Shown one piece after another: positions 42,378 to 55,469 of a stretch of 64,000 nt of DNA (the first letter of the stretch is position 1; the number at the start of each line of letters is the position of its first letter). Source of the DNA: Candidatus Omnitrophota bacterium (GTDB taxonomy: Bacteria; Omnitrophota; Gorgyraeia; Zapsychrales; Zapsychraceae); NCBI GenBank assembly GCA_029261055.1, contig JAJDCA010000038.1, forward strand, positions 9,619 through 73,618. The letters are read 5' to 3'. The translations under genes and the position numbers were made by a program. Under the pieces are notes generated by a model. It did no database searches, was not told the origin of the DNA, and saw only the letters and a list, made by a program, of their open reading frames with translations.

Positions 42378-42433
42378 GTGCTAAGTATAAACAAAACAAA
42401 TGGCATGTTCAATCCGATTCTTGCCCTTTCCAT

Positions 42434-42460
42434 AAAAAAGGATCCCGTTGGGGACCCTTA
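42434..42460. terminator. Hairpin AAAAAAGGATCCC-GTTG-GGGACCCTTATTT
   Basis: Near-identical copy of the hairpin at 50637..50658. It is directly adjacent to tRNA-fMet fragment F1. Confidence 0.45.
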
Positions 42461-42469
42461 TTTATTGAT

Positions 42470-42511
42470 TGCGGGAAGCGAATTTGAACCGATGACCTTT
42501 AGGTTATGAGG
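42470..42511 (-). pseudogene. Degenerate copy of the tRNA-fMet 3' half (fragment F1), a candidate island att-site remnant
   Basis: Reverse complement CTCATAACCTAAAGGTCATCGGTTCAAATTCGCTTCCCGCAATCA vs the authentic 3' exon CATAACCTGAAGGTCATCGGTTCAAATCCGGTCCCCGCAACCA. There is no 5' half. Confidence 0.65.
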
Positions 42512-42633
42512 ATGTTATATGACTTTTCTGATAGTTGCTTGTTTTTACTAATGTTTACTGCTGGTAGAGTTTACGAAGAATTAATTTGCTGGTGTTTGCC
42601 TGTTATTAGGCTTGTTTTATTACACATACGTTA

Positions 42634-43866
42634 TCACAAACTTATTTCAATACGCACACCAGCAACTAAAGCATCTTTCATTCCAATTACCGCCCCTGGA
42701 TTAATAACATATTGAAGGTCTGGTTGGATTCTTAATTGGTCATTAATTTGTACGTTATATGTCGCCTCAATGGTCGTTTCATAATCATCTCTTCCGCCCG
42801 CATCAACAATATCATCATTGATCATAGCATAAGCTACCGCAATACCTACCTCATCGTCATCTCGACCTGGAATTAAACCTTTATAGTTAAATCCCCCTCC
42901 AACATACAAATTCACTTCATTCACACGTTTATCATTCATGCCAAACTGAATAAATCCACCAAGCCCTTGATCTTCACGCTCTTCATAAATTTGTTTATCA
43001 ACAATTAAATATCCACCAATATTGTTATTACGTTGAATCGGATCACCGCTAAGATTCAAATCAACGACGTCATCAAAATCTCCAGTGTTATTCCATAAAC
43101 CTAATTTAATAAATCCTGGCAACGATTCTTCATGAAAATGATAGGCTGCTTCTGCTGCAATAAACACACCCGATGAACTATCTAAATCTGAACGAGAAAA
43201 ATGCTCACTCACATCAGGATCGCCTGGGTCTCCATCATACACAGCCAATAATAATTCCCATTGCTCGTCTAATAATGCTTTTATTCTAATTCCTGGTGCA
43301 GCCAACGGAAAAACCGAAGGTCTTGCTCCTGCTGAAATATCAGGTTGAACACCAAAGGAACTGTTAATATACAACCCTCCATATTCCGTAACATTAAACT
43401 CTGAGTTATAGTCATGGAGTCCTAACAAAACTGACAACTGTTCATCTAAAAAAGAATGCTGATACCATAACTCGTAAATACGAAATGTTCGTGGAGCCTC
43501 GATATTACTGACAGTCTGTAAGTCTCCTACAATTTCACCCGTTAATTTTTCCCCACCTGAATTATAAAGACTATAAAAAAAGAACTGTCCATTTTCCCAA
43601 AGACCTAACTTCTTTGTATCTATCTCTAAAGTAATATCCAAATTTGTTAAATAAGTATCCTCTCTTTTAATACCACCCTGTGTATTTGCAAAGTATTCCG
43701 CCGTATATACCGCTTCAAAAGAAATACCTTTATCCTCTAATTGTTTGCGTAATTCTTCGGCCCAAACTTGCTTAGCTTCAAAGATACCATGAAATGTAAG
43801 AATTAAAAACAGAATGGATAATAAGTAAAGTAATTTTTTAATGATATATGTCTTTTTAAATTTCAT
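42634..43866 (-). CDS. Outer-membrane porin-like protein (OprB/carbohydrate-porin-like)
   Basis: Signal peptide. Beta-rich, Gly/Tyr-patterned sequence ending in an aromatic-containing C-terminus. Confidence 0.4.
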   Translation of the reverse strand: MKFKKTYIIKKLLYLLSILFLILTFHGIFEAKQVWAEELRKQLEDKGISFEAVYTAEYFANTQGGIKREDTYLTNLDITLEIDTKKLGLWENGQFFFYSLYNSGGEKLTGEIVGDLQTVSNIEAPRTFRIYELWYQHSFLDEQLSVLLGLHDYNSEFNVTEYGGLYINSSFGVQPDISAGARPSVFPLAAPGIRIKALLDEQWELLLAVYDGDPGDPDVSEHFSRSDLDSSSGVFIAAEAAYHFHEESLPGFIKLGLWNNTGDFDDVVDLNLSGDPIQRNNNIGGYLIVDKQIYEEREDQGLGGFIQFGMNDKRVNEVNLYVGGGFNYKGLIPGRDDDEVGIAVAYAMINDDIVDAGGRDDYETTIEATYNVQINDQLRIQPDLQYVINPGAVIGMKDALVAGVRIEISL

Positions 43867-44147
43867 ATGATGAGACAGTGTATCATCATTGAGTTAACCA
43901 TGTCAATATATTTTATTTTAAGATTTACCGTAGATTTGTTACATATTTGTTATCATTGATAAAACAAACCACATACCACAGCAACATATTAGATTTTTAG
44001 CTATTTATTAACAACATGTTGTGTAGTTCCCTTTTGATCCCCTCTCTCTTCAACCTTCATATTATGAGGGCGAGTGCTTATATTTTAAGTGTTGATAATG
44101 AAGCGGTTAGGATACTTGCGAATTTCGATGTGCCAGATTTGTGCTAT

Positions 44148-44660
44148 TTATGCTACCTCATCAAATTCAGAACGAAAGTGAACCACTCCTGAAAAAGAAC
44201 TTAGGTCCAGATCACTTAAAATCATAATCATAAATGCTTCATCAGGGACTTCCCATTTACAACGAACGCCATACATACTTGCGACCTCAAACCCAAATTT
44301 TGGATAATACTCTGAGTGTCCCAATACTACAACAAAGGGACATTTTCTATTTTTGAGTTCTTCTATTCCTTTCTCAATCAATTTCGACCCTATTCCCTTT
44401 TTCTGATATTCAGGTAATACCGCCATAGGAGCAAGCCCCATCCCTTGATCAATACCTTTTTTCGTCTCGACCTTAACTGGTGTAAAAAGAATATGCCCTA
44501 CAATATGACCATCTTCTTCTGCTACGAGAGATATTATATCCTTACAACTATTTCTCAATTTATCTACAAGGTCAGCTTCAATGGGTTGCTCAAATGCGGC
44601 AAGATTGACTTGTCGAATTGAAATTATATCCTTTAAGTTTTCAGTGCGTACTTTTACCAT
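44148..44660 (-). CDS. GNAT-family N-acetyltransferase
   Basis: Acetyl-CoA-binding motif QKKGIGSKLIEKGIEEL. Confidence 0.7.
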   Translation of the reverse strand: MVKVRTENLKDIISIRQVNLAAFEQPIEADLVDKLRNSCKDIISLVAEEDGHIVGHILFTPVKVETKKGIDQGMGLAPMAVLPEYQKKGIGSKLIEKGIEELKNRKCPFVVVLGHSEYYPKFGFEVASMYGVRCKWEVPDEAFMIMILSDLDLSSFSGVVHFRSEFDEVA

Positions 44661-44710
44661 ATGATAGTAATACCAGGACCAGCTCCCGCGATCTTTTGTA
44701 TTGCTGTTCT

Positions 44711-45211
44711 TTATTCTGAATTAGAGCTTTGCGCCCTATCATTCATATCCTGATACAACCAAACCATGCGATCTAAAAACCAAGTCTTACCCATCATCGT
44801 AATCACTGTTCCAAATACCGTTAACCATACATGAAGAGCTATAAGACCATAAATTGCACAAATAAAACCAATAGAGGTAATCACCTTTATTACATTTAAT
44901 GCGCGTAAATGATGCTTAGGTATTTCAGTCTTAGATTGATTAAGAAATATTCTCTCGCCAAGCACGGCTTTTGAGGCCCAGTTATTAATAGAATCTGGTT
45001 TTTTAAATATACGCGGATTAAACCAAGTCCAAAAACATACCATGACGATAGGAATTAAACACATCCATCCTATCCAAACTCTTGACCAAACAGCAAGACA
45101 TAATAATGGCAAACAAGAATATCTCGTCCAGACACTCCATGGATTAACGTGTCTTTCCCAAACATCATCCGACATTTTAAATATTTTTTCTGCAGTTTTT
45201 TCTATATTCAT
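44711..45211 (-). CDS. Hypothetical membrane protein
   Basis: Three or four TM helices. Confidence 0.4.
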   Translation of the reverse strand: MNIEKTAEKIFKMSDDVWERHVNPWSVWTRYSCLPLLCLAVWSRVWIGWMCLIPIVMVCFWTWFNPRIFKKPDSINNWASKAVLGERIFLNQSKTEIPKHHLRALNVIKVITSIGFICAIYGLIALHVWLTVFGTVITMMGKTWFLDRMVWLYQDMNDRAQSSNSE

Positions 45212-45474
45212 TATTGCTCCTCAACTCGTGCTTTAAGTGCTTGATTCATCAACTCAAAACCATTCTTTGTTTTATCTTCCATACTTCCCCATAATAATAG
45301 GGGCCAGCTGTTAATGCTCAGTAATTAGGTAACTCTTTTGGTATAATAATAACAGCGTTATTAATTTAAACCACTTAAAAACTACCTCCTAAATAGGGGT
45401 ATAAGGGGCTAATTTTGAAATTGGTAAAAAAGAGCTGATGAAAGCAACTCACCAGCTCCTTTTACACGACACCT

Positions 45475-45930
45475 TTAAGAATTAAATCTTCCTCTAAAAT
45501 GATGCCTTTTATACCTTTGCCCATGCGAATGTTTTTTTATCTCCTCAACTAACTTCTTCCTCTGCTCTTGACTTAAACTACTATGAAAATCAGAAACTAC
45601 GCCAACAACTTGAGGAGCCAGTTCATCCACTTGGCTTTGCTTTCTCTCTATTATATTCAACACTTGCTGTTGATCCAAAGAGTCGGCTTCCAACAAAGAA
45701 ACAAATTCCTCTTTAAGCTGTGAATGGTCCCGATTTGTTTCATAGCGAAGGTTTTCAAGCTCCTTATGTAAAAGCACAAGCTTAGCTTTTTGCTGATCAT
45801 CAAGCTGAAGTCTTTTTGAAACAATCTTGATCAATCGATCATTCTTTGAGGAACGATGATCTCGTCCACAACCAGCAATAAAACCGCCAACGGCTATTAT
45901 TGCTATTAAAACTATCCATTTATTATTCAT
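45475..45930 (-). CDS. Spy/CpxP/ZraP-like periplasmic protein
   Basis: Signal peptide/lipobox. Helical repeats with LxxxQ-like motifs and a His-rich C-terminus. Confidence 0.45.
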   Translation of the reverse strand: MNNKWIVLIAIIAVGGFIAGCGRDHRSSKNDRLIKIVSKRLQLDDQQKAKLVLLHKELENLRYETNRDHSQLKEEFVSLLEADSLDQQQVLNIIERKQSQVDELAPQVVGVVSDFHSSLSQEQRKKLVEEIKKHSHGQRYKRHHFRGRFNS

Positions 45931-45944
45931 GTTATTACCTCCTA

Positions 45945-46556
45945 TTAATTATTAGCTAAAACACATACTGCACAAACTGGTTTCAGATTTTTAATTTCTA
46001 CCTTTATATCCTTAAAGCCCGCCTCTAGAAGTTGGGCTGAAATTTTATTCCCTGCATCAATGGCATCTTGATTGGTTGATCTCGGCTTTCTCGGTTGAAA
46101 TGTTATGGCAATCGTGCCATCGACCTTTAGGATACTTTTCAAGTGCATGAAATATTCCACAGGTTTATCCCAGAACATCCAAACATTAACAGAAAAAATC
46201 TTATGAAAAGTCTCTTTTAGTAATTTTAATTCCTCGATCGATCCATTGATCAGCCTTGCCTTTCCACTTCTTACAAATGATGCATTTCTCCTTGAAGCCT
46301 GTTTATGCATAATTTCAGAGTGATCAATGCCTACAACACGACCTTTATTAAGTTTTTGACACACTTGTTCGATGCTTAATCCAGGACCAAAGCCTATTTC
46401 TAAAACTTTGTCATCTGGTTGTATATCCAATAAATTAACTGTCCAGGCATTACGAATACGATTGGACTGCCGATTGGCCATAATTGTTCCAGCCACTTCA
46501 CCCAAAAAACCACTCGGTCTTTTAAATTGAGCCATGACTCCATTCATCGAGTACAT
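45945..46556 (-). CDS. Class I SAM-dependent methyltransferase
   Basis: Motif I VLEIGFGPGLS. Confidence 0.65.
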   Translation of the reverse strand: MYSMNGVMAQFKRPSGFLGEVAGTIMANRQSNRIRNAWTVNLLDIQPDDKVLEIGFGPGLSIEQVCQKLNKGRVVGIDHSEIMHKQASRRNASFVRSGKARLINGSIEELKLLKETFHKIFSVNVWMFWDKPVEYFMHLKSILKVDGTIAITFQPRKPRSTNQDAIDAGNKISAQLLEAGFKDIKVEIKNLKPVCAVCVLANN

Positions 46557-46557
46557 T

Positions 46558-47043
46558 TTATCCCTCCTTTTTGATTACTTGACTCCATTGCTCACTCTCA
46601 AAAGCTTCTCTTATACTTTTTAAAGCTTCAACCGTGATCACCAAATCCTTCTTTGTTACTGATATCCCAAATTTTTTAAGTATTTTTTCTTCCTTGGCAG
46701 ATAGAGAATAATAGAGTTTTTTTCCTTTTTCTGTCATGTTAACCAACTTTGATCTTTTATGAGCCGGATTAGGAATCAATTCAACAATATCCTTTTTTAG
46801 CAGTTCATTAATGATCACTTGAATATGCTGCCTTGATACCGGCCTCATTCTGGCCAACTCTGGGACAGTTAAGGATCCTTTTTTTTCTAAACTTCTTAAA
46901 ACTCCCCTTTGTCCTGCTTTTATCTTTTCCCTTCCATGAATATCCTCCACAACAGCCGCCAATCGATGAAACAGTTTTACGTTTTCAACGAAAAGCGATT
47001 GAAACAATTCGATAGATTGTTCTGTTATTTTTGTTTTTTTCAA
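46558..47043 (-). CDS. MarR-family transcriptional regulator
   Basis: Winged HTH: LTVPELARMRPVSRQHIQVIINELLKKDIV. Confidence 0.7.
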   Translation of the reverse strand: MKKTKITEQSIELFQSLFVENVKLFHRLAAVVEDIHGREKIKAGQRGVLRSLEKKGSLTVPELARMRPVSRQHIQVIINELLKKDIVELIPNPAHKRSKLVNMTEKGKKLYYSLSAKEEKILKKFGISVTKKDLVITVEALKSIREAFESEQWSQVIKKEG

Positions 47044-47395
47044 ATCCCACTCTCCTTTCTGTTGTTTTGTTCCTCCTTTAACTTACTCTCAATATACCAT
47101 ATGACAATATACTTGTCAAGTAGACAACCATATTGTCATTAGTAATGTGAAAACATGTTATTTTAGAAGAATTCTAAATACTTCTTTTCTAGGGAAAATC
47201 GAGGGTAACTCGAAGAAGCTTTTAAAGGTCAACCGTCCTTCAGGCGATAAAGGCAAAGTGCTGTGCTAAAATTTTCAAGCTGGGGATCTTCCGTTCAAGA
47301 GAGTATTGACAATACAATCATTAAATAGTATATTTAGTTAATATAAAGTAATCTAAGTTAGTTTAAATGCATATAAAGACAATAATGGAGGATAT

Positions 47396-48154
47396 ATGGC
47401 AGAAGAAATTTTTACGACTCAAGAATTAGCTGAATATATGAAGGTTAATGAGAAAACAGTTATCAAACTAGCTCAAGCGGGGGATCTTCCAGGGTTTAAG
47501 GTTGGGAATCAATGGAGGTTTAGCTGGACTATGATTGATCGATATATGAATGGACACGTGTTTGATTCCTCTGATGAAAATATGGATATCATTCTTAAAA
47601 CTAAAGATCATATTATTCCTTTTTCGCGTTTGACGGATGAAACCATTATTAATTTGGATTTACGTGCAGATAGTAAGAGAAAAGTCATTTCTGAATTAGC
47701 ACGCATGTCACATACTGCAAGGTTGACACCTTCTTACGAAGGTCTTTATATTGCACTAGAGGAGCGGGAAAAATTGTTAAGTACGGCTGTTGGCCAAGGA
47801 GTAGCATTGCCACATCCACGTTTTCCTGATCAGATGACATTCAAAGAACCACATATTGTTATTGCCCGTTCAAAAATAGGGGTAGAGTATGATGCTCCAG
47901 ACAATAAAAAAGTTCATCTATTTTTTATGCCCTGTTCACAATCTCAATTTGTTCATTTGCGTTTGTTAGCAAAGATTTCTAAGCTTCTTCACATTCCTAA
48001 TGTTATCGATCGTTTTATGCAAGTAACAAGTGCGAAAGAAATTATTCAAATATTAATGGCGCTTGAACAGGAACATTTATTACCTACAGATGATACGAAT
48101 CATGTTCAAAAAGTGATTGATGAACAAAACGAAGTGCAGGAGAGGCAAAAGTGA
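47396..48154 (+). CDS. Excisionase/MerR-type HTH fused to a PTS EIIA(Ntr/Fru)-type domain
   Basis: N-terminal TQELAEYMKVNEKTVIKLAQAGDLPGFKVGNQWRF (HTH_17). C-terminal GQGVALPHPRF..HIVIARSKIGVEYDAPDNKKVHLFFM carries the conserved EIIA-2 histidine. Confidence 0.6.
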   Translation: MAEEIFTTQELAEYMKVNEKTVIKLAQAGDLPGFKVGNQWRFSWTMIDRYMNGHVFDSSDENMDIILKTKDHIIPFSRLTDETIINLDLRADSKRKVISELARMSHTARLTPSYEGLYIALEEREKLLSTAVGQGVALPHPRFPDQMTFKEPHIVIARSKIGVEYDAPDNKKVHLFFMPCSQSQFVHLRLLAKISKLLHIPNVIDRFMQVTSAKEIIQILMALEQEHLLPTDDTNHVQKVIDEQNEVQERQK

Positions 48155-48185
48155 AAGTATTTAGAAATTTCTTTCTCTCTCTTCC

Positions 48186-49289
48186 TCATAAAACTGCAGC
48201 ATTGTGATTTTGATAATCAGCATATCCTTGTGCCTCATGCGAATACCAATAGGTCATATCGTCAAAAGGCGTTAGTGGAGTATTGTTCTGAAAACGTTCA
48301 GGTAAATCAGGATTTGTAATGAAAGGTCGCCCAAAAGCAATCATGTCGGCATCCTTTGATTCAATTCTTTCTTGGGCCAACTCACGCGTATAGCCACAAT
48401 TTCCAATTATAGCACCTTTAAAAAGTGGCCTAAAATCCGCCAGCGTCATGGGTTCTCCCTTTTCATGAAATCCAAATGCCAGACCATCCATGATATGCAT
48501 ATACCCAAGATTGAATTTATTAAACTCTTGTGCCGTATAAAGGAAGGTGTCCCTATAGTCTTCACTGCCCATATCATTAAAAGCCCCATTGGGTGAAATG
48601 CGTACTCCTACGGAATCAGGATCCCACACCTCTAACACAGCTTCAATGACCTCCTTAAAAAAACGAAAACGATTTTCAATGCTCCCCCCATATTCATCCT
48701 CGCGAATATTGGTTTTAGATTCAAGAAATTGATTAATCAAATACCCGTTTGCACCATGAATTTCAACGCCCGCAAAACCAGCTTCTTTAGCATTCTTAGC
48801 CGCTAGTCGATAATCATTTACCGTCTGCTTAATTTCATCAATCGTTAAAGGACGTGGCACTTCGTAATCTTTTTCCCCGAGCGGTGTATGAATCTGATCA
48901 CCGTTTTCAATTTTAATGGCCGATGCCGAAACAGGAAGCTCCCCGTTATGAAAATCACTATGTGAAGCTCTGCCGCAATGCCATAATTGCAAAAACATCG
49001 GTGTCTTTGCCTCAGCCATTTTTGAAGTCACGCTCTTCCAGCCCTCAACCATTTTCGATGTATAAATTCCCGGCGAGTGATTCCACCCATTACCCTGTGC
49101 CGAAACTACCGTCGCTTCAGTAATAATTAAACCCGCCCCTGCACGCTGATAATAATACTCTGCCATCAAGCTGTTCGGTATCCGTTCCTCACCAGCCCTT
49201 CCACGTGTCATAGGGGCTAAAACGATTCGATTTTTAATTTTAAATTTTCCTAATTGATATGAATCAAACATAACGCTCATTGTATGCAC
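48186..49289 (-). CDS. Old Yellow Enzyme-family NADH:flavin oxidoreductase (alkene/N-ethylmaleimide reductase-like)
   Basis: RIVLAPMTRGRA, HCGRASH, GFAGVEIHGANGYLINQFL. Confidence 0.8.
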   Translation of the reverse strand: MHTMSVMFDSYQLGKFKIKNRIVLAPMTRGRAGEERIPNSLMAEYYYQRAGAGLIITEATVVSAQGNGWNHSPGIYTSKMVEGWKSVTSKMAEAKTPMFLQLWHCGRASHSDFHNGELPVSASAIKIENGDQIHTPLGEKDYEVPRPLTIDEIKQTVNDYRLAAKNAKEAGFAGVEIHGANGYLINQFLESKTNIREDEYGGSIENRFRFFKEVIEAVLEVWDPDSVGVRISPNGAFNDMGSEDYRDTFLYTAQEFNKFNLGYMHIMDGLAFGFHEKGEPMTLADFRPLFKGAIIGNCGYTRELAQERIESKDADMIAFGRPFITNPDLPERFQNNTPLTPFDDMTYWYSHEAQGYADYQNHNAAVL

Positions 49290-49480
49290 TCTCCTTTTTA
49301 TACTGCTTGTCGTTTTGTGTGATAATAGGGGTTAGCTTACACTGACCCCGATTTTCGTTTTTTGGGCAACATCTGCCCGATTTGTTCTGCAAATTTTTTT
49401 GGGGAAATAAATGAGTTTATCTCCAATTCCTTCTTCCCCTTATAGTAGCCTCTTCTGATTTATTCCCAAGGCCTAGATTG

Positions 49481-50023
49481 CTAGACTATATTAATCTTAG
49501 ATGATTTTGCTACACCCTCTAAATTCTTATAAATATAATACTGACCAATTATCATACACACTTTATATTCCAAGCTTGATTTATTCCACTCATATACGGA
49601 TTTACTTGTTTCTGGATCAAAAGAAACTCTTTTCGGAATTGGGACAAATATTCTAGTTTCATCACAAAAAATAAAATGAAGCTGTTTAACTGTTACATTT
49701 CCTATCTTAAGGAATACCAGTTGAGAATAAGCCTTTTTATTTGGATAAACATTTGTCCAATCTTCTGAAAAATCTTTCCATCCTTCTGCTAAATGAATTT
49801 GAAAAGTATTATCATCTTCACAAATCCAGATTTCTCTATTTTCAATATGTTCTTTCTTCCACTTTGATTTTTCAACATAACGTTTAAAAGCTCTAAGATC
49901 ATTCTTTTTCTGGCTAATATTAAGGCCAGGAAGCCAACCTAAAAAAATTCCTTCCACTTCGTATCTCTCTTTAATCCAGTTAATTATTTTTTTCATAAAG
50001 CATACTTTTATTTTGTTAGACAT
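49481..50023 (-). CDS. Hypothetical protein
   Basis: 180-aa ORF with no motifs. Confidence 0.4.
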   Translation of the reverse strand: MSNKIKVCFMKKIINWIKERYEVEGIFLGWLPGLNISQKKNDLRAFKRYVEKSKWKKEHIENREIWICEDDNTFQIHLAEGWKDFSEDWTNVYPNKKAYSQLVFLKIGNVTVKQLHFIFCDETRIFVPIPKRVSFDPETSKSVYEWNKSSLEYKVCMIIGQYYIYKNLEGVAKSSKINIV

Positions 50024-50106
50024 ATATTATCACCAAAGATTTTACCACAAATAAGAAAAGCCAGCCATCGTTATAAAACGTTGATTGGGTTTAACTTATA
50101 TTGATT

Positions 50107-50143
50107 TCGGGGAGAAAATTTGAACCGATGACCTTCATGAGGC
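50107..50143 (-). pseudogene. Degenerate copy of the tRNA-fMet 3' end (fragment F2)
   Basis: Reverse complement GCCTCATGAAGGTCATCGGTTCAAATTTTCTCCCCGAAATCA. It shares the TTCAAATT/AATCA variants with F1. The stop codon of ORF 50135..50581 lies inside it. Confidence 0.6.
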
Positions 50144-50581
50144 TAAAACAAACTCCTCTAATAATCCCCACCGCTCTCGGTATGCGGAAGACTTTGGTTG
50201 TCTTTGCCTCTTGACACTCTCAACTATCGCAATGCTACTGGCATAACTATTGAAAATATCCACCGGCATAATATAAAAAACCTTTATTTCGTGAATATAC
50301 AAAATTGCAAAATCAAAATCTTTACTACTATATCGAGAACGTTGCATTACTCTTCTATTTGTCCTTGTCCTTCTATTGTCCACAAGATACATCGACTTTA
50401 ATTGGTTGTACCAGGCTGCTTTTACTTGTATGCGAATAAACGTGTTCCTGACTTCCACAACTAAATCATAAGGCAAACGATCTCCTAGTGGCTTCAGGAC
50501 ATTATACCCTCGGCTTAATAATTCTGTACTAACAGCTGATTCGGCAATATCGGCTTTAAGCTTTGTATCCATTTTTTTCAA
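50135..50581 (-). CDS. PD-(D/E)XK-fold nuclease-like protein
   Basis: ESAVSTELLSRGYNVLKP..PYDLVVEV...IRIQVK gives the D...E.K catalytic pattern. It is located between tRNA-fMet and fragment F2. Confidence 0.45.
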   Translation of the reverse strand: MKKMDTKLKADIAESAVSTELLSRGYNVLKPLGDRLPYDLVVEVRNTFIRIQVKAAWYNQLKSMYLVDNRRTRTNRRVMQRSRYSSKDFDFAILYIHEIKVFYIMPVDIFNSYASSIAIVESVKRQRQPKSSAYRERWGLLEEFVLAS

Positions 50582-50688
50582 GAATTAAATAATGTAAGTT
50601 GTTGATCTACAAGATGTTATTTTCTGAGAATAAAAAAGGATCCCGTTGTGGGGATCCTTAAATGAAAACTGATACTCTTAGGAGTTCC

Positions 50689-50733
50689 GAAAGTGCACGA
50701 GTTGCTTTAAAGCATAGCAACTCGTGCACTTTC
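50689..50733. other. Perfect 18-bp-stem hairpin GAAAGTGCACGAGTTGCT-(9 nt)-AGCAACTCGTGCACTTTC
   Basis: Read directly. It is flanked by two further terminator hairpins (50637..50658 and 50737..50775), all downstream of the tRNA-fMet gene. Confidence 0.6.
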
Positions 50734-50736
50734 CAT

Positions 50737-50775
50737 AAAAAAGACTCAAGCCATTACTGGCTTGAGTCTTTTTTA
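50737..50775. terminator. Bidirectional rho-independent terminator immediately 3' of tRNA-fMet
   Basis: AAAAAAGACTCAAGCC-ATTACT-GGCTTGAGTCTTTTTT, with an 11-bp stem, an A-run and a T-run. Confidence 0.7.
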
Positions 50776-50776
50776 T

Positions 50777-51080
50777 TGGTTGCGGGGACCGGATTTGAAC
50801 CGATGACCTTCAGGTTATGCATACCAACTATGGCTTTCGCCACTAGGCGACAAATTAAAAATTTGTCGCTTATTTGTGGTCTGGACTATCCCTTTACCCT
50901 TTCGGGTATCCGCCTACTAGTCTCTACACCTTCTCCGACAAACTTTTTCAAGTTTGTCTTCGTTTGGCTCGGGATTACCATGTTAAAGGCTTCCCCGAAT
51001 TTGACGGATGTTAACCAGATTGTTTCCAACCTGGGGGCCCACTTTGAGCCTGACGAGCTACCTGACTGCTCCACCCCGCG
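50777..51080 (-). tRNA. Initiator tRNA-fMet(CAU) gene interrupted by a group I intron. Exons lie at 51047..51080 and 50777..50819.
   Basis: The joined exons give CGCGGGGTGGAGCAGTCAGGTAGCTCGTCAGGCT|CATAACCTGAAGGTCATCGGTTCAAATCCGGTCCCCGCAACCA. This is 77 nt and near-identical to E. coli tRNA-fMet, including C1:A72 and three G-C pairs in the anticodon stem. The 227 nt between them separate the anticodon-loop halves. Confidence 0.85.
50820..51046 (-). ncRNA. Group I self-splicing intron (227 nt) in the tRNA-fMet anticodon loop, between U33 and C34
   Basis: The 5' exon ends in U. The intron ends in G (..GGTATG|CATAA). A GGCC guide-like sequence near the intron 5' end can pair with the exon GGCU to form P1. 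There are R-like (GTAGAGACTAGTAGG) and S-like (AAAGGGATAGTCCAGACC) core elements. No ORF lies inside. Confidence 0.75.
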
Positions 51081-51108
51081 ATATGTTGTTAAAACTAACT
51101 TATAACGG

Positions 51109-51399
51109 CTATTCTGTTTCTTCCGGCATTAACCGGTAAACGACTTCACCTTCACGAACAATACCCATTTTTTCACGGGCAACCTTCTCTAAATACTCTG
51201 GATCTTCTTTTAAAAGTCGACGTTCTTCTAATAATTCTTTCTTCTCTTGCTTTAAATCTTCAATCTCTTTGGCGTAATCGAAATTCTTTTTTTTGATGTC
51301 CTGCAATTGTGTAAATGCCGGTAAAAATCCAACTAATATTAAAATGGCAACAACAAAAATCCAAATACCATTTTTAAACATTACCAGATTTTTCCCCAT
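51109..51399 (-). CDS. ftsB: Septum formation initiator FtsB/DivIC family
   Basis: N-terminal TM helix plus a coiled coil ([28 protein letters not shown]). It is immediately downstream of eno, as in many bacteria. Confidence 0.6.
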
Positions 51400-52652
51400 A
51401 AAGGACCAGCATACACGGCTTTGTCGCCTAATTCTTCTTCAATGCGTAAAAGCTCATTGTATTTAGCCAAACGATCTGTTCGGGATAAAGAACCTGTCTT
51501 AATCTGACCAACGCCTGTGGCCACGGCTAAATGGGCGATCGTGGTGTCTTCTGTTTCACCGGATCGATGGGAAATAATCGATGTATATTTATTTTCTTTG
51601 GCTAGATTAATCGCATCTAAAGTTTCTGACAAACTGCCGATTTGGTTAACTTTGACCAAGATTGAATTCGCTATTTTTTTCTCAATACCTTCTTTTAAAC
51701 GCTTCACATTCGTAACAAATAAATCGTCGCCGACAAGCTGAATATTACCGCCTATCTTGGTGGTCATGGCTTGCCAACCATCCCAATCATTTTCATCCAA
51801 CCCATCTTCGATTGAAATCAACGGACTATTTTTAGTCATCTCAGCATAAACATCTACTAATTCAGCCGCACTGATTTGATTGCCATTATAATGATACTTT
51901 CCATCTTTATAAAATTCTGAAGAGGCGGCATCTAAGGCAATAAAAACATCCTTATCTGCTTTGTAACCAGCCTTTTCAATCGCTTCTAAAATAACAGCCA
52001 CTGCTTCTTCATTACTCGAAAGATTCGGGGCAAATCCACCTTCATCTCCGACGGATGTTGCTAAATTCTTGGATTTAAGAATACTTTTAAGACTATGAAA
52101 TACTTCGGTGGCCATACGTAGCGCTTCGGAAAATGTTGGCGCGCCTAAAGGAGCAATCATAAATTCCTGTACATCTAAATTATTATCGGCATGACACCCA
52201 CCATTAATGATATTCATCAAAGGCACCGGTAAAATTTTGGCCTCATCTCCACCTAAATACTTATATAAAGGAATATTTGCTTCAACAGCGGCCGCCTTGG
52301 CTGTCGCCATAGAAATACCTAAAATCGCATTGGCGCCAAGCTTGGCTTTATTTTCTGTGCCATCTAAATCAAGAAGAATTTTGTCAACAGCCTTAAATTC
52401 CGGATCTTGACCTACCACACTATTGGCCATGACTGTATTCACATTTTCTACAGCCTTCAAAACACCTTTACCCATATATTTGGATTTATCCCCGTCGCGC
52501 AATTCAATCGCTTCATGCTCACCTGTGGATGCACCGGAAGGAACCGCTGCACGACCAATAACACCTGACTCTAAAGTAACATCAACTTCTACCGTTGGAT
52601 TTCCGCGGGAATCTAAAATTTGTCGACCTTTTACATGTTTAATTTTTGACAT
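51381..52652 (-). CDS. eno: Enolase
   Basis: Full-length match: [24 protein letters not shown]..., catalytic [35 protein letters not shown]. Confidence 0.92.
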
Positions 52653-53792: not shown

Positions 53793-55469
53793 ATGAAAAA
53801 ATTTATTATTTTCTTCAAACTTCATTGGATTAAAACTTCCGTAATAATTCTTACTTTAGCTATTTTAATCGGTGGCGGATTCTTTATGCACTATTGCGTA
53901 TCCAGCTTTTCAGAAATGGAAAACTTTTCTAAACGACAAGTTGCCGGCCAGATGGCAATGCTTTTCCCTATGTTTGCTCTGATCCATGTTATTACCATCC
54001 CCTTATCCTATTTTATGTACTCGCATATGATGCGTGGTGGCGGTATGGGAAAATTAGGTATCGATAAATTAAAAGTTGCTGTCAAATGGGATGAGGTCAT
54101 CGGCATGGAAGCCGCAAAAAAAGAAGCTTGGGAAATTATTAAATTACTTAAAGATCGGCATCTTTTAAAAGTTATTGGAGGAAAAATTGTTAAAGGAACA
54201 TTGATGATTGGCCCACCCGGGTGTGGAAAAACCTATTTAGCTAAAGCCATTGCCACCGAATGCGGCCTTCCTATGATATCTACTGTCGGAAGCGAGTTTG
54301 TCGCTATGTTTGTTGGGCAAGGAGCGGCCAAGATGAAATCTCTATTTAAACAGGCCCGAGCCATGGCTTCCTTAGAAGGTGGCTGCATCATATTTATCGA
54401 CGAAATTGATTCTTTTGCCCGACCACGGCAAGCCGATAGAGGATTTGGGGGAACCTCAAGCCTCAATGCTACAATCAATCAATTTCTTACCGAACTCGAT
54501 GGGTTACGTCAAACTGAAAATAATATTATCGTTGTCGCCGCAACAAACGTAGCCGAAGATGAATTGGACAACGCGATTACACGAGCCGGACGATTTGATC
54601 GAAAAATTTATATCACAAAACCAAACCTTGCCGAACGCAAAGATTTATTCAAATTCTATCTCTCGCGTGTAAAAACAGAAAGTGCCGTAGACCCGGATCT
54701 TCTGGCACGTAAGGCCCTCTACTTTTCCCCTTCCGATATCGACAGCATGATTCGTGAGGCAGGGATCGTTGCTTTAAGAGATAAACGAGACACCATATCT
54801 GCCAAAGACCTGTCTGAATCTTATGACCGGGTTACCTTTGGCTTAAAATCTAATATCACATTAACCAAAGAAGAAAAAATATGGACAGCCTACCACGAGG
54901 CAGGCCACGCCGTTATTGCGTATTTAACACATCCAACCAATGATGTTATTAAAGCGACCATCATTCCACATAAAGGATCGTTAGGTTTTATTTCCCAACG
55001 GCCCACGGAAGAACTTCATTCCTCAAACAAAGAACACCTTTTAGCTAATATAAAAGTTAGTGTTGCCAGTTACGTTGCCGAAACAATTAAATTTGGGTCG
55101 ACAAGTAGTGGTGTTGGTGGCGGCCCCGGGAGCGACTTTGATACAGCCATGCGTTACGCCCATGCGATGGTCTGGCGTTATGGGATGGGCGAATCCGGCC
55201 TCTTAGGTGACTTTTATGCTTTAAGTAGCTACGGTCAACCCCCTAATATTTCTGAAGAAACAAAGAGGATTCTCGACAATGATGTCCAAAAAATCCTGCA
55301 AACATGTCTAAAAGAAGTTCAGGCCGTTCTTTCAAAACATACTGATTTATTGGAAGAATTTGCCCAAGAACTACTCAAAAAAGAAGAATTAGAATATGAT
55401 GAAATTGTTGCTATTTTTGATAAATTCGGAATGGAATCAGCAGCCAGACCGTCAGAAAACTTAAGCTAA
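53793..55469 (+). CDS. Compact FtsH-like AAA+ zinc metalloprotease paralogue
   Basis: Walker A GPPGCGKT, Walker B IIFIDEID, second region of homology. HEAGHAV zinc motif. The N-terminal region (2 TM helices, short) does not look like the canonical FtsH periplasmic domain. Confidence 0.7.
   Translation: MKKFIIFFKLHWIKTSVIILTLAILIGGGFFMHYCVSSFSEMENFSKRQVAGQMAMLFPMFALIHVITIPLSYFMYSHMMRGGGMGKLGIDKLKVAVKWDEVIGMEAAKKEAWEIIKLLKDRHLLKVIGGKIVKGTLMIGPPGCGKTYLAKAIATECGLPMISTVGSEFVAMFVGQGAAKMKSLFKQARAMASLEGGCIIFIDEIDSFARPRQADRGFGGTSSLNATINQFLTELDGLRQTENNIIVVAATNVAEDELDNAITRAGRFDRKIYITKPNLAERKDLFKFYLSRVKTESAVDPDLLARKALYFSPSDIDSMIREAGIVALRDKRDTISAKDLSESYDRVTFGLKSNITLTKEEKIWTAYHEAGHAVIAYLTHPTNDVIKATIIPHKGSLGFISQRPTEELHSSNKEHLLANIKVSVASYVAETIKFGSTSSGVGGGPGSDFDTAMRYAHAMVWRYGMGESGLLGDFYALSSYGQPPNISEETKRILDNDVQKILQTCLKEVQAVLSKHTDLLEEFAQELLKKEELEYDEIVAIFDKFGMESAARPSENLS

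What the first reader, a model, noticed from the sequence alone, without database searches (positions are those of the whole stretch)
50777..51080. Initiator tRNA-fMet gene split by a 227-nt group I intron in the anticodon loop
On the minus strand the 5' exon is CGCGGGGTGGAGCAGTCAGGTAGCTCGTCAGGCT and the 3' exon is CATAACCTGAAGGTCATCGGTTCAAATCCGGTCCCCGCAACCA. Joined, they form a canonical 77-nt initiator tRNA with a CAU anticodon and the C1:A72 mismatch. They are separated by 227 nt that show group I hallmarks.

- The 5' exon ends in U and the intron ends in G.
- A GGCC guide-like sequence near the intron 5' end can pair with the exon GGCU to form P1.
- There are R/S-like core motifs (GAGACTAGTAGG and GGGATAGTCCAGACC).
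- There is no internal ORF.

Group I introns in tRNA-fMet are established in cyanobacteria. In an apparently proteobacterial, AT-rich genome this would be an unusual, laterally acquired ribozyme. It is also presumably the only initiator tRNA copy in this window. The ORF track instead shows two spurious ORFs across it (50662..51105 plus, 50886..51074 minus).
Basis: partly seen in the sequence, partly recalled or inferred. Interest (0 to 1): 0.8.

Follow-up and report, generated by a model that had tools for sequence, protein, structure and literature searches.

The report
Split initiator tRNA with detached homing endonuclease
The initiator tRNA gene really is interrupted by a self-splicing group I intron, but this is a long-known intron class found in many bacterial phyla; the less ordinary part is that its homing-endonuclease gene sits just outside the intron, next to leftover copies of the tRNA's 3' half.

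Summary
On the minus strand, 51080-51047 and 50819-50777 join into a 77-nt initiator tRNA (CAU, C1xA72, A11:U24), split between U33 and C34 by a 227-nt group I intron (Rfam RF00028, 52.5 bits against a gathering score of 50). The fold holds across 33 homologues (96% of cells paired, 27 of 51 pairs compensatory).

The interpretation needs correcting. This is the classical "fMet 33/34" IC3 intron class. The host is a Candidatus Omnitrophota (PVC group) bacterium, not a proteobacterium. At least 120 species-representative genomes from about 15 phyla carry the signature of interruption at this site.

It is an intact homologue of I-Ssp6803I (PDB 2OST, E=2e-46), the endonuclease normally encoded inside this intron. 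Here it stands free about 200 nt downstream of the tRNA and is under purifying selection. The same layout occurs in 32 of 120 intron-selected loci.

In the window's clade the ORF ends in a partial intronless tRNA-fMet copy. A third copy lies 7.6 kb further on, bracketing nine accessory genes and no integrase.

Splicing and endonuclease activity are inferred, not shown. I found no description of the free-standing layout at tRNA-fMet in the papers I could search.

The parts
51047..51080 (-). tRNA-fMet 5' exon (positions 1-33, ends in U33)
   Evidence: The only copy of the 5' half in the window.
50820..51046 (-). 227-nt group I intron (fMet 33/34 class), no ORF. Intron numbering n = 51047 - coordinate. 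Guide/P1 at 6-11, P2 at 13-32 (GAAA loop), P3 at 39-44/133-138, P4 at 48-53/74-79, P5 at 57-59/68-70, P6 and P6a at 80-118, P7 at 123-129/159-164, P8 at 139-152, P9.0 at 167-171/219-224, P9 at 178-200, P9a at 205-216 (GAAA loop), omega G at 227.
   Evidence: Rfam RF00028, 52.5 bits. RNAalifold. Pair counts on 8 sequences and 33 sequences.
50883..51008 (-). Catalytic core P3-P8, including the P3/P7 pseudoknot and the bulged-A P7 helix (guanosine-binding helix by analogy with other group I introns)
   Evidence: P3 and P7 are 100% paired in 33 of 33 sequences; P7 is nearly invariant apart from a fully covarying last pair.
50777..50819 (-). tRNA-fMet 3' exon (C34 to A76, CCA encoded); repeat copy 1
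50735..50776 (-). Strong hairpin flanked by an A-run and a T-run directly after CCA; likely terminator of the tRNA transcript
   Evidence: Fold (the whole spacer has z=-10.7). The consensus terminator scan did not list it, possibly because the stem can extend into the A/T runs.
50636..50733 (-). Two further hairpins in the tRNA-to-endonuclease spacer (50689-50733 and 50636-50659; the second is terminator-like)
   Evidence: The second hairpin and the segment 50722-50743 recur beyond copy 3 (families D3 and D4).
50135..50572 (-). Free-standing I-Ssp6803I-family PD-(D/E)XK homing endonuclease gene, 145 aa, ATG at 50572, TGA stop at 50137-50135
   Evidence: PDB 2OST E=2e-46. Pfam PF11645, 149.5 bits. 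All family-invariant residues present. pN 0.17-0.22 against pS 0.75-0.88 versus the closest relatives. An identical 145-aa gene product is on record.
50102..50143 (-). Repeat copy 2: decayed partial intronless tRNA-fMet copy (GCCTCA-TGAAGGTCATCGGTTCAAAT...), 5 nt deleted in the anticodon loop; contains the endonuclease stop codon
   Evidence: Better-preserved equivalents in L122, L128, L213, L214 and L215.
42511..50101 (.). 7.6-kb interval between copies 2 and 3 with nine accessory genes: unknown 180-aa ORF, OYE reductase, HTH_17-PTS EIIA regulator, MarR, methyltransferase, LTXXQ/Metal_resist protein, DUF6653, GNAT, OprB porin. No integrase.
42466..42510 (-). Repeat copy 3: partial intronless tRNA-fMet copy starting at C32-U33 (CT-CATAACC...), 40 of 45 identical to the true sequence
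42419..42457 (-). Terminator hairpin and TTTTTTATGGAAAG flank after copy 3, paralogous to sequences downstream of copy 1
   Evidence: D3 95%, D4 91%.
51109..52652 (-). Upstream housekeeping genes eno (51381-52652) and ftsB/divIC-like (51109-51399). The tRNA starts 28 nt after the ftsB stop codon.
   Evidence: The same gene order is found in Omnitrophota loci.

Best explanation
[quoted passage not shown] Inferred mechanism: the precursor is transcribed, probably with or just after eno-ftsB, and ends at the hairpin after CCA. The intron folds into P1-P9. Exogenous guanosine attacks after U33, which sits in a U-G wobble with the guide GGCC. The guide segment GUG then pairs with the 3' exon CAU (P10), and G227 is displaced to ligate the exons into a 77-nt tRNA-fMet(CAU). 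About 200 nt downstream lies an intact, selectively maintained homologue of I-Ssp6803I, the enzyme that cuts intronless tRNA-fMet genes in the anticodon region. Here it is encoded outside the intron. I propose that intron and endonuclease work as a trans ('collaborative homing') pair. The endonuclease cuts intronless tRNA-fMet alleles, the intron-split gene is immune, and repair copies the intron and the linked endonuclease gene. The same logic penalises precise intron loss. Shown here: sequence, structure, homology, conservation and linkage. Inferred: splicing, cleavage specificity, immunity and mobility.
For: Exons and tRNA. Group I model hit. Structure: RNAalifold recovers P1, P3-P6, P8 and P9. 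On 8 close relatives 94.7% of cells pair against 29-40% when slid, with 28 compensatory pairs against 12.7+/-2.4 in shuffles. On 33 introns spanning Scytonema hofmanni, Trichodesmium and about 12 other phyla, 96.4% pair against 30-44% when slid, 27 of 51 pairs are compensatory, the splice-site U-G is present in 33 of 33, and P3 and P7 are 100% paired. Class: Williams 2020 defines fMet.2Ug as 33/34 and IC3. In 97 of 120 scanned loci an fMet 5' half ending in GGCT lies 201-1268 nt upstream of G+CATAACC, and 14 of 18 sampled loci pass Rfam's gathering score. Host: flanks are closest to Omnitrophota MAGs, named endonuclease homologues are all Omnitrophota, and the order purN-ftsH-eno-divIC-tRNA-endonuclease is conserved in GCA_035292445.1. 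Endonuclease. Linkage: free-standing downstream of a short-intron tRNA-fMet in 32 of 120 intron-selected loci against 17 intronic. Among 80 endonuclease-selected metagenome loci, at least 53 are intronic, 5-6 are free-standing and none sits beside an uninterrupted bacterial-type tRNA-fMet. No intact intronless junction exists in the window.
Against: No experiment: self-splicing, cleavage specificity and mobility all rest on homology. The Rfam score is only 2.5 bits above threshold. The anticodon stem has two rather than three consecutive G:C pairs. Only 64 kb were available, so another tRNA-fMet gene elsewhere in the genome cannot be excluded. Three hairpins, two of them terminator-like, lie between the tRNA and the endonuclease gene, and no sigma-70 type promoter was found, so how either gene is expressed is unknown. 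Long-term purifying selection on a chromosomal homing endonuclease is not what a simple homing cycle predicts, and it could mean a different or additional role. Phage relatives of the endonuclease (45-58% identical) sit directly upstream of intact tRNA-Met(CAU) genes, so not every family member is incompatible with an adjacent uninterrupted tRNA-CAU gene. One metagenome homologue (L199) has no tRNA or intron within 3 kb.
Confidence: 0.8

Rival explanations
1. The endonuclease gene has no role in moving or retaining the intron. It is simply next to the tRNA because it moved out of the intron or landed beside it. It persists as an independent selfish element (intronless homing of its own gene) or through some benefit to the host.
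For: It is under strong purifying selection within a vertically inherited, syntenic locus, which a pure homing cycle does not predict. Terminator-like hairpins separate it from the tRNA. Phage homologues are free-standing beside intact tRNA-Met genes with no intron. L199 has no tRNA nearby.
Against: Free-standing copies are always on the tRNA's strand, 53-275 nt past its 3' end, and always beside an intron-split gene, never an intact bacterial-type tRNA-fMet. The family's characterised member targets exactly this intron's insertion region (literature, own knowledge and PMC3384342). Several free-standing copies in other lineages are decaying fragments, as expected for a homing endonuclease after fixation.
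Confidence: 0.25
2. The three direct copies of the tRNA 3' half are attachment-site scars of ordinary integrase-mediated genomic islands that targeted tRNA-fMet. They are unrelated to the endonuclease, and the integrase has since been lost.
For: tRNA 3' halves starting in the anticodon loop are typical island attachment sites (established knowledge). Copies 1 and 3 with their flanks bracket accessory-type genes. What follows the distal copy differs between close relatives L213, L214 and L215, as at an integration hot spot.
Against: No integrase or recombinase is present in the 7.6-kb interval, nor in the small equivalents in L102 and L096. Copy 2 abuts the endonuclease ORF so closely that the stop codon lies in its anticodon loop in the window, L128 and L213-L215. 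All copies begin within about 3 nt of the intron insertion site.
Confidence: 0.35
3. The intron is a dead relic and this locus is a pseudogene. A separate intronless tRNA-fMet elsewhere in the genome supplies initiator tRNA.
For: Only 64 kb of the genome were examined. The Rfam score is marginal.
Against: Every core helix is intact, and compensatory changes across relatives show selection on the fold. Both exons are undamaged and 71 of 77 positions match E. coli tRNA-fMet. The locus is conserved in related genomes. An intact endonuclease of this family would be expected to cut an intronless copy.
Confidence: 0.05
4. The gap is an archaeal/eukaryotic-style intron at position 37/38 in a tRNA-Leu(CAA), as ARAGORN's intron mode reports.
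For: ARAGORN -i output. The intron and the 3' exon both begin with CA, so sequence alone allows several registers.
Against: Only the 33/34 register gives U at -1 and G at omega and allows P1 and P10. The acceptor, D and T arms are those of tRNA-fMet. All 97 homologous 5' halves end in GGCT. The insert is a group I ribozyme.
Confidence: 0.01

Closest known systems
Cyanobacterial tRNA-fMet group I introns (Synechocystis, Scytonema, Dermocarpa; Biniszkiewicz et al. 1994; 'fMet.2Ug' of Williams 2020)
   Same: Same host gene, same insertion site (U33/C34), U at -1 and G at omega, and the same core and peripheral helices. 157 of 244 positions are identical to the Scytonema hofmanni UTEX 2349 intron, and the base-pair pattern is shared.
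   Different: The host is an Omnitrophota bacterium. The L1 loop is minimal (3 nt), whereas cyanobacterial members have a 35-90-nt L1 extension. P6a is longer with a GAAA loop. The exon carries A29:U41.
I-Ssp6803I, the PD-(D/E)XK homing endonuclease encoded inside the Synechocystis PCC 6803 tRNA-fMet intron (PDB 2OST)
   Same: Full-length homologue (E=2e-46, 53% identity). Same Pfam family PF11645. All family-invariant residues are present.
   Different: It is encoded outside the intron, about 200 nt downstream of the tRNA's 3' end, behind terminator-like hairpins. Its activity and target are untested.
Collaborative (trans) homing in phages: the free-standing F-CphI beside the ORF-less psbA intron of cyanophage S-PM2, and T3 gene 5.3 versus the intronic I-TslI (Zeng et al. 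2009; Bonocora and Shub 2009; reviewed in PMC3984707)
   Same: [quoted passage not shown]
   Different: Here the setting is a bacterial chromosome and an essential tRNA gene rather than a phage protein gene. The endonuclease family differs. The layout recurs across several phyla (32 of 120 loci). In the window's clade there is also a duplicated tRNA 3' half. No mobility data exist.
Azoarcus pre-tRNA-Ile and Anabaena pre-tRNA-Leu IC3 introns
   Same: Small bacterial tRNA-anticodon-loop ribozymes of about 200-250 nt, with P2, a short P5, P9.0 and GAAA tetraloops in L2 and L9 (architecture known from the literature, own knowledge).
   Different: Different tRNA and insertion position (36/37 and 34/35). 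No direct alignment to these two was made here.
Genomic islands integrated into tRNA gene 3' ends
   Same: Direct repeats of the tRNA 3' part, starting in the anticodon loop, bracket accessory genes.
   Different: No integrase is present. The innermost repeat is fused to the end of a homing endonuclease ORF.

Membership tests
Group I intron (Rfam RF00028) | Covariance-model score at or above the curated gathering score | tested here: met
   52.5 bits against 50, E=1.8e-10. The margin is small. Relatives score 54-81 bits.
Group I intron (Rfam RF00028) | P1 helix with a U-G wobble at the 5' splice site, and G as the last intron nucleotide | tested here: met
   U33-G8 within GGCU/GGCC, G227. The U-G pair is present in 33 of 33 homologues.
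Group I intron (Rfam RF00028) | Conserved core P3-P8 with the P3/P7 pseudoknot | tested here: met
   P3 and P7 are 100% paired across 33 sequences, with compensatory changes in P3, P4, P8 and the last P7 pair.
Group I intron (Rfam RF00028) | Guanosine-dependent self-splicing | not testable with these tools
   Needs in vitro transcription and splicing, or RNA data.
Bacterial tRNA-fMet 33/34 intron class (fMet.2Ug, subgroup IC3) | Inserted between U33 and C34 of an initiator tRNA | tested here: met
Bacterial tRNA-fMet 33/34 intron class (fMet.2Ug, subgroup IC3) | Sequence and structure homology to the cyanobacterial members | tested here: met
   BLAST matches to all 97 extracted introns. 64% global identity to Scytonema hofmanni. 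Shared pairs.
Bacterial tRNA-fMet 33/34 intron class (fMet.2Ug, subgroup IC3) | Assignment to IC3 by subgroup-specific models | not tested
   No subgroup models were available. IC3 is taken from GISSD as cited by Williams 2020.
Bacterial initiator tRNA | C1xA72 mismatch, CAU anticodon, A11:U24 | tested here: met
   Read from the joined exons and the ARAGORN cloverleaf.
Bacterial initiator tRNA | Three consecutive G:C pairs 29-31:39-41 in the anticodon stem | tested here: not met
   A29:U41, G30:C40, G31:C39, so two of three. The change is compensated and shared by L031, L122, L128 and L213. Such variants are known in some bacteria (own knowledge), so I still file it as an initiator.
I-Ssp6803I / PF11645 PD-(D/E)XK homing endonuclease | Family-level sequence match and conserved motif residues | tested here: met
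   Pfam 149.5 bits against 26.1. 2OST E=2e-46. D36, Q49-V50-K51 and the other invariant columns are present.
I-Ssp6803I / PF11645 PD-(D/E)XK homing endonuclease | Encoded within the group I intron | tested here: not met
   The ORF starts 204 nt after the tRNA's 3' end. It is therefore a family member by sequence, but not an intron-encoded endonuclease.
I-Ssp6803I / PF11645 PD-(D/E)XK homing endonuclease | Cleaves intronless tRNA-fMet DNA at the anticodon region | not testable with these tools
   Needs an enzyme assay.
Collaborative (trans) homing pair | ORF-less intron with an adjacent free-standing endonuclease gene | tested here: met
Collaborative (trans) homing pair | The endonuclease target coincides with the intron insertion site, the intron confers immunity, and both are co-converted | not testable with these tools
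   Inferred from I-Ssp6803I. Indirect support: no intact target in the window, and the endonuclease is never beside an intact bacterial-type tRNA-fMet.
Integrase-mediated tRNA-targeting genomic island | Direct repeats of the tRNA 3' part flanking the insert | tested here: met
   Family D1, three copies.
Integrase-mediated tRNA-targeting genomic island | Tyrosine or serine recombinase gene within the insert | tested here: not met
   No recombinase domain in any ORF of at least 70 aa between 42.5 and 50.1 kb.

The most novel reading that the evidence does not exclude
In the window's Omnitrophota clade the mobile unit is not the intron alone. It is a composite cassette made of the ribozyme, its own replacement tRNA 3' exon, a terminator and the endonuclease gene, inserted at the 33/34 site. 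The displaced original 3' half remains as the distal copy and serves as the right-hand homology arm for homing, so the endonuclease travels with the intron without interrupting the ribozyme. The same endonuclease-made break could also have captured the 7.6-kb accessory-gene block between copies 2 and 3. That would be integrase-free island insertion into an essential tRNA gene, driven by a homing endonuclease.
Probability: 0.2. Interest if true: 0.75.

Novelty: new variant of a known kind. Interest (0 to 1): 0.5.

Why it matters
The intron itself adds only another host phylum to a class known since 1994. The context matters more. [quoted passage not shown] Here, about a quarter of the tRNA-fMet intron loci sampled (32 of 120) carry the cognate-family endonuclease gene, or a remnant of it, just outside the tRNA. 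That conclusion may therefore undercount mobility potential.

One target site and one endonuclease family now show three states: intronic, free-standing next to an ORF-less intron, and free-standing in phage tRNA arrays. These states are interleaved on the protein tree. This offers a natural comparative series for the open question of how endonuclease genes and group I introns come together and separate, which so far has been illustrated by two phage systems (PMC3984707).

Practically, default tRNA finders miss this essential gene altogether. Contigs from three assemblies of a close relative end shortly after the endonuclease gene, where the tRNA 3' half is repeated, possibly because of that repeat.

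Tried and rejected
- ARAGORN in default mode finds no tRNA in the window. Its intron mode finds the split gene but places the intron at 37/38 and calls it Leu-CAA. I rejected this on the U(-1)/G(omega) rule and the tRNA's identity features.
- My first strict regular expression for the 5' half recovered only 25 of 120 loci. Fuzzy matching replaced it.
- The idea that a distal intronless tRNA fragment follows every free-standing endonuclease was tested and rejected. It holds for the window, L122, L128 and L213-L215. It does not hold for the Nostocales loci, L031 or L077.
- An integrase was sought in the 42.5-50.1 kb interval and not found.
- The sigma-70 promoter scan around the tRNA found nothing.
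- The named-phage collection holds no close homologue of the endonuclease; the best match is 27.6% identity in an Enterococcus phage.
- Zhao et al. 2007 (PMC1864971) and Paquin et al. 1997 (PMC179611) are not held in the library. Catalytic-residue roles and early remarks on downstream ORFs therefore could not be checked.
- A custom covariance model was considered but not built, because MAFFT alignments with explicit structure lines already gave clear pair counts.
- The NCBI record of the source genome could not be retrieved; only Logan contigs were returned.
Full report
**1. The observation**

On the minus strand, 51080..51047 (34 nt) and 50819..50777 (43 nt) are separated by 227 nt. Joined, they give a 77-nt cloverleaf that ARAGORN calls tRNA-Met(CAT). 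It matches E. coli tRNA-fMet at 71 of 77 positions and has the bacterial initiator marks C1xA72, A73 and A11:U24. The differences from E. coli include two compensated pairs (29:41 and 50:64). One hallmark is incomplete: the anticodon stem has A29:U41, so only two of the three consecutive G:C pairs are present. Related loci share this variant.

Rfam's group I model matches 51065..50867(-) at 52.5 bits (gathering score 50, E=1.8e-10). It is the only Rfam hit in the 64 kb. ARAGORN in default mode finds no tRNA anywhere in the window. The two ORFs that run across the intron have no Pfam match.

**2. Splice sites**

The intron and the 3' exon both begin with CA, so sequence alone allows three registers. 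ARAGORN's intron mode picks a fourth, 37/38, and reports "Leu-CAA". Only the U33|C34 register places U before the 5' splice site and G (G227) before the 3' splice site.

In that register exon G30-G31-C32-U33 pairs with intron G8-G9-C10-C11, with U33-G8 as the wobble. Intron C1-A2 can extend the helix by pairing with U6-G7. The same G5-U6-G7 can alternatively pair with C34-A35-U36 of the 3' exon, which is the expected P10. All 97 homologous 5' halves I recovered end in GGCT. The U-G wobble is present in 33 of 33 aligned homologues.

**3. Structure**

RNAalifold on the window plus seven close relatives recovers P1, P3, P4, P5, P6a, P8, a five-pair P9.0-like closing helix and two P9 hairpins. I wrote an explicit structure that includes the P3/P7 pseudoknot and counted pairs.

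| Alignment | Cells paired | Paired when partners slid 1-3 columns | Pairs with compensatory changes | Shuffle control |
|---|---|---|---|---|
| 8 sequences | 94.7% | 29-40% | 28 of 63 | 12.7+/-2.4 pairs; 0 of 500 shuffles reach 28 |
| 33 sequences | 96.4% | 30-44% | 27 of 51 | 0 of 500 shuffles reach the covariation score |

The 33-sequence set includes Scytonema hofmanni, Trichodesmium erythraeum and members of about a dozen other phyla. In it, P3 and P7 are fully paired in every sequence. The intron plus short exon flanks (241 nt) folds at z=-5.3 against shuffles. This is strong evidence that selection maintains the fold. It is not evidence that the RNA splices, which remains an inference.

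**4. What kind of intron**

Williams (bioRxiv 10.1101/2020.01.27.920355) lists four classical bacterial tRNA intron types: Leu.3Ug, Arg.5Ug, fMet.2Ug and Ile2.5Ug. The GISSD database marks all four as IC3. In that notation fMet.2Ug means insertion after the second anticodon-loop nucleotide, which is 33/34. The 2026 survey PMC13011429 also names 33/34 in tRNA-fMet as a common site. The window's intron therefore belongs to a class described in cyanobacteria in 1994 (own knowledge).

**5. Distribution and host**

An uninterrupted tRNA-fMet always has T before CAT. I therefore scanned the species-representative genomes for G followed by the fMet 3' half. The organisms are cyanobacteria (the majority), Omnitrophota, Planctomycetia, Nitrospirota, Rhodothermales, several proteobacterial groups, Bdellovibrionota, Chlamydiae, Actinomycetota, Chloroflexi, Elusimicrobiota, Melainabacteria, Patescibacteria, Eremiobacterota, Auribacterota and Bacteroidia.

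In 97 of these loci a 5' half lies 201-1268 nt upstream. Of 18 sampled loci, 14 pass Rfam's gathering score.

The window's intron and its flanks are closest to Omnitrophota MAGs. L031 shows 74% identity over 188 nt of intron and 78% amino-acid identity in the enolase C-terminus, and eno-ftsB-tRNA gene order is shared. Every named close homologue of the downstream endonuclease is from Candidatus Omnitrophota. The MAG GCA_035292445.1 has the same order purN, hypothetical gene, ftsH, eno, divIC, tRNA(intron), endonuclease. The host is therefore a PVC-group Omnitrophota bacterium, not a proteobacterium. The locus looks inherited within that lineage.

**6. The detached endonuclease**

The ORF 50135..50572(-), 145 aa, had no NCBIfam match. 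It is nevertheless a full-length homologue of I-Ssp6803I (PDB 2OST, E=2e-46; Pfam PF11645 at 149.5 bits). I-Ssp6803I is the PD-(D/E)XK homing endonuclease encoded inside the Synechocystis tRNA-fMet intron. It recognises a 23-bp pseudo-palindromic target (PMC3384342), which is the anticodon region of intronless tRNA-fMet genes (own knowledge).

The window's protein keeps every invariant residue of the family. Against its closest relatives pN is 0.17-0.22 while pS is saturated at 0.75-0.88. It is therefore a maintained gene. It begins 204 nt after the tRNA's CCA. Three strong hairpins lie in between (spacer z=-10.7); the consensus terminator scan lists one of them, and the first looks like a terminator by eye.

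**7. How common the layout is**

| Locus set | Free-standing downstream of a split tRNA | Intronic | Beside an intact bacterial-type tRNA-fMet | Other |
|---|---|---|---|---|
| 120 loci chosen on the split tRNA | 32 (same strand, 53-275 nt after the tRNA, introns 213-324 nt; about eight are truncated remnants) | 17 (ORF starts 3-29 nt after the 5' splice site in 16 of them) | not assessed (loci were chosen on the split gene) | 69 with none in the locus held, 2 unclear |
| 80 metagenome loci chosen on the endonuclease | 5, plus L196 unresolved | at least 53 | 0 | the rest cut by contig ends or without a matched tRNA half |

The window's two closest endonuclease relatives, L122 (75%) and L128 (74%), are both free-standing. 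A neighbour-joining tree without support values places free-standing copies in at least five separate positions among intronic ones. In six of the ten viral contigs, homologues at 45-58% identity end at the 5' end of intact tRNA-Met(CAU) genes within phage tRNA arrays.

**8. What the literature says**

Collaborative or trans homing, meaning an ORF-less intron with a neighbouring free-standing endonuclease that targets the intron's insertion site, is described for two phage systems (PMC3984707). [quoted passage not shown] NCBI already names these proteins "group I intron-associated PD-(D/E)XK endonuclease".

I found no paper describing the free-standing arrangement at tRNA-fMet. The library lacks most subscription-journal papers, including Paquin 1997 and Zhao 2007, so this absence is weak evidence.

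**9. Repeated tRNA 3' halves**

The endonuclease's TGA stop lies inside a decayed copy of the tRNA from about G30 to the 3' end (50143..50102). This copy has 20 nt identical to the real exon and a 5-nt deletion in the anticodon loop.

In L128, L213, L214 and L215 the equivalent copy is nearly intact and uninterrupted (GGCT-CATAACC...). There the stop codon TAA is U36-A37-A38 of that copy. In L122 the distal copy begins a few nt after a TGA stop codon. The distal copy in these relatives differs from the functional exon by a compensated T-stem pair (G52:C62 to A52:U62). That suggests it derives from a once-functional allele and is not a random duplicate. It is preceded by T rather than G, so it cannot serve as a group I 3' splice site.

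This bracketing is specific to the window's clade and is absent from most other free-standing loci.

A third copy, 40 of 45 identical and starting at C32, lies at 42510..42466. It is followed by a terminator and flank that recur downstream of copy 1. The 7.6 kb between copies 2 and 3 hold nine accessory-type genes and no integrase. What follows the distal copy differs among L213, L214 and L215, so this is a variable site.

**10. Interpretation**

I rate it at about 0.9 that this is a functional, self-splicing fMet 33/34 intron in the initiator tRNA gene of an Omnitrophota bacterium. I rate it at roughly 0.55 that the neighbouring endonuclease acts with it as a trans homing and retention pair. 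I rate it at about 0.2 that the clade-specific duplication marks a composite cassette that carries its own 3' exon and can take cargo with it. The main rival for the repeats is ordinary integrase-mediated island insertion followed by loss of the integrase.

**11. Verdict**

The claims about host and rarity are wrong. The intron itself is ordinary. The interest lies in the detached, conserved endonuclease and the repeat architecture.

Noticed in passing
window 42466-42510 (-), 50102-50143 (-), 50777-50819 (-): Three direct copies of the tRNA-fMet 3' half. Only the last is functional. Copies 1 and 3 share flanking terminator sequence and bracket about 8.3 kb.
   Followed up: partly
window 42511-50101: Nine accessory-type genes lie between repeat copies 2 and 3: OprB porin, GNAT, DUF6653, LTXXQ/Metal_resist, methyltransferase, MarR, HTH_17-PTS EIIA fusion, OYE reductase and an unknown 180-aa ORF. 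There is no integrase and no clear GC shift.
   Followed up: partly
window 47396-48154 (+): An unusual fusion of an excisionase/MerR-type HTH_17 domain with a PTS EIIA-2 domain. The N-terminus also scores against the MADS1 anti-phage HTH model at 56.5 bits, below its cutoff of 80.
   Followed up: no
L202-L206, L208 (IMG/VR contigs): Phage tRNA arrays carry free-standing homologues of the same endonuclease family (45-58% identity). Each ORF ends at, or within about 35 nt of, the 5' end of an intact tRNA-Met(CAU) gene, with no intron. L203 and L204 also show suppressor-like tRNAs (anticodons TTA and TCA) just upstream.
   Followed up: partly
L001 and L212 (Logan contigs of SRR15505515); L213-L215: Assemblies break at this locus. 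In the window's own sample, one contig ends inside the 5' exon and the next begins inside the 3' exon. Three independent contigs of a relative end shortly after the endonuclease gene. Repeated or conserved tRNA halves are the likely cause.
   Followed up: partly
L102 (Pseudobdellovibrionaceae), L096 (Gloeobacterales), L112 (Saccharibacteria): Other split tRNA-fMet loci also have a distal partial copy of the tRNA 3' part. In L102 it lies about 2 kb beyond the endonuclease (42 of 45 identical). In L096 it lies 738 nt downstream, enclosing an AbrB/MazE-like ORF and no endonuclease. In L112 it lies 166 nt downstream. No integrase is seen in L102 or L096.
   Followed up: partly
A3 alignment columns 12-100; intronic loci such as L057, L076, L124-L201: The L1 loop is where the family varies most. 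It is 3-7 nt in the window's clade and a 35-90-nt extension in cyanobacteria and others. In intronic forms the roughly 430-nt endonuclease ORF starts only 1-9 nt after the 5' splice site.
   Followed up: partly
L199 (metagenome contig Ga0206995_1112): An endonuclease homologue at 61% identity has no tRNA, tRNA half or group I intron within 3 kb on either side. This is an exception to the tRNA linkage.
   Followed up: no
L048 ('uncultured Acetobacteraceae' MAG): It carries a 244-nt Nostoc-type intron and a Nostoc-type free-standing endonuclease that nests within the Nostocales clade. This may be a cyanobiont contig mis-binned into an alphaproteobacterial MAG.
   Followed up: no
window 53793-55469 (+): An FtsH-family AAA protease of 558 aa aligns to the FtsH model only from position 105. 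It therefore appears to lack the usual N-terminal membrane part. The gene is conserved next to eno in related Omnitrophota loci.
   Followed up: no
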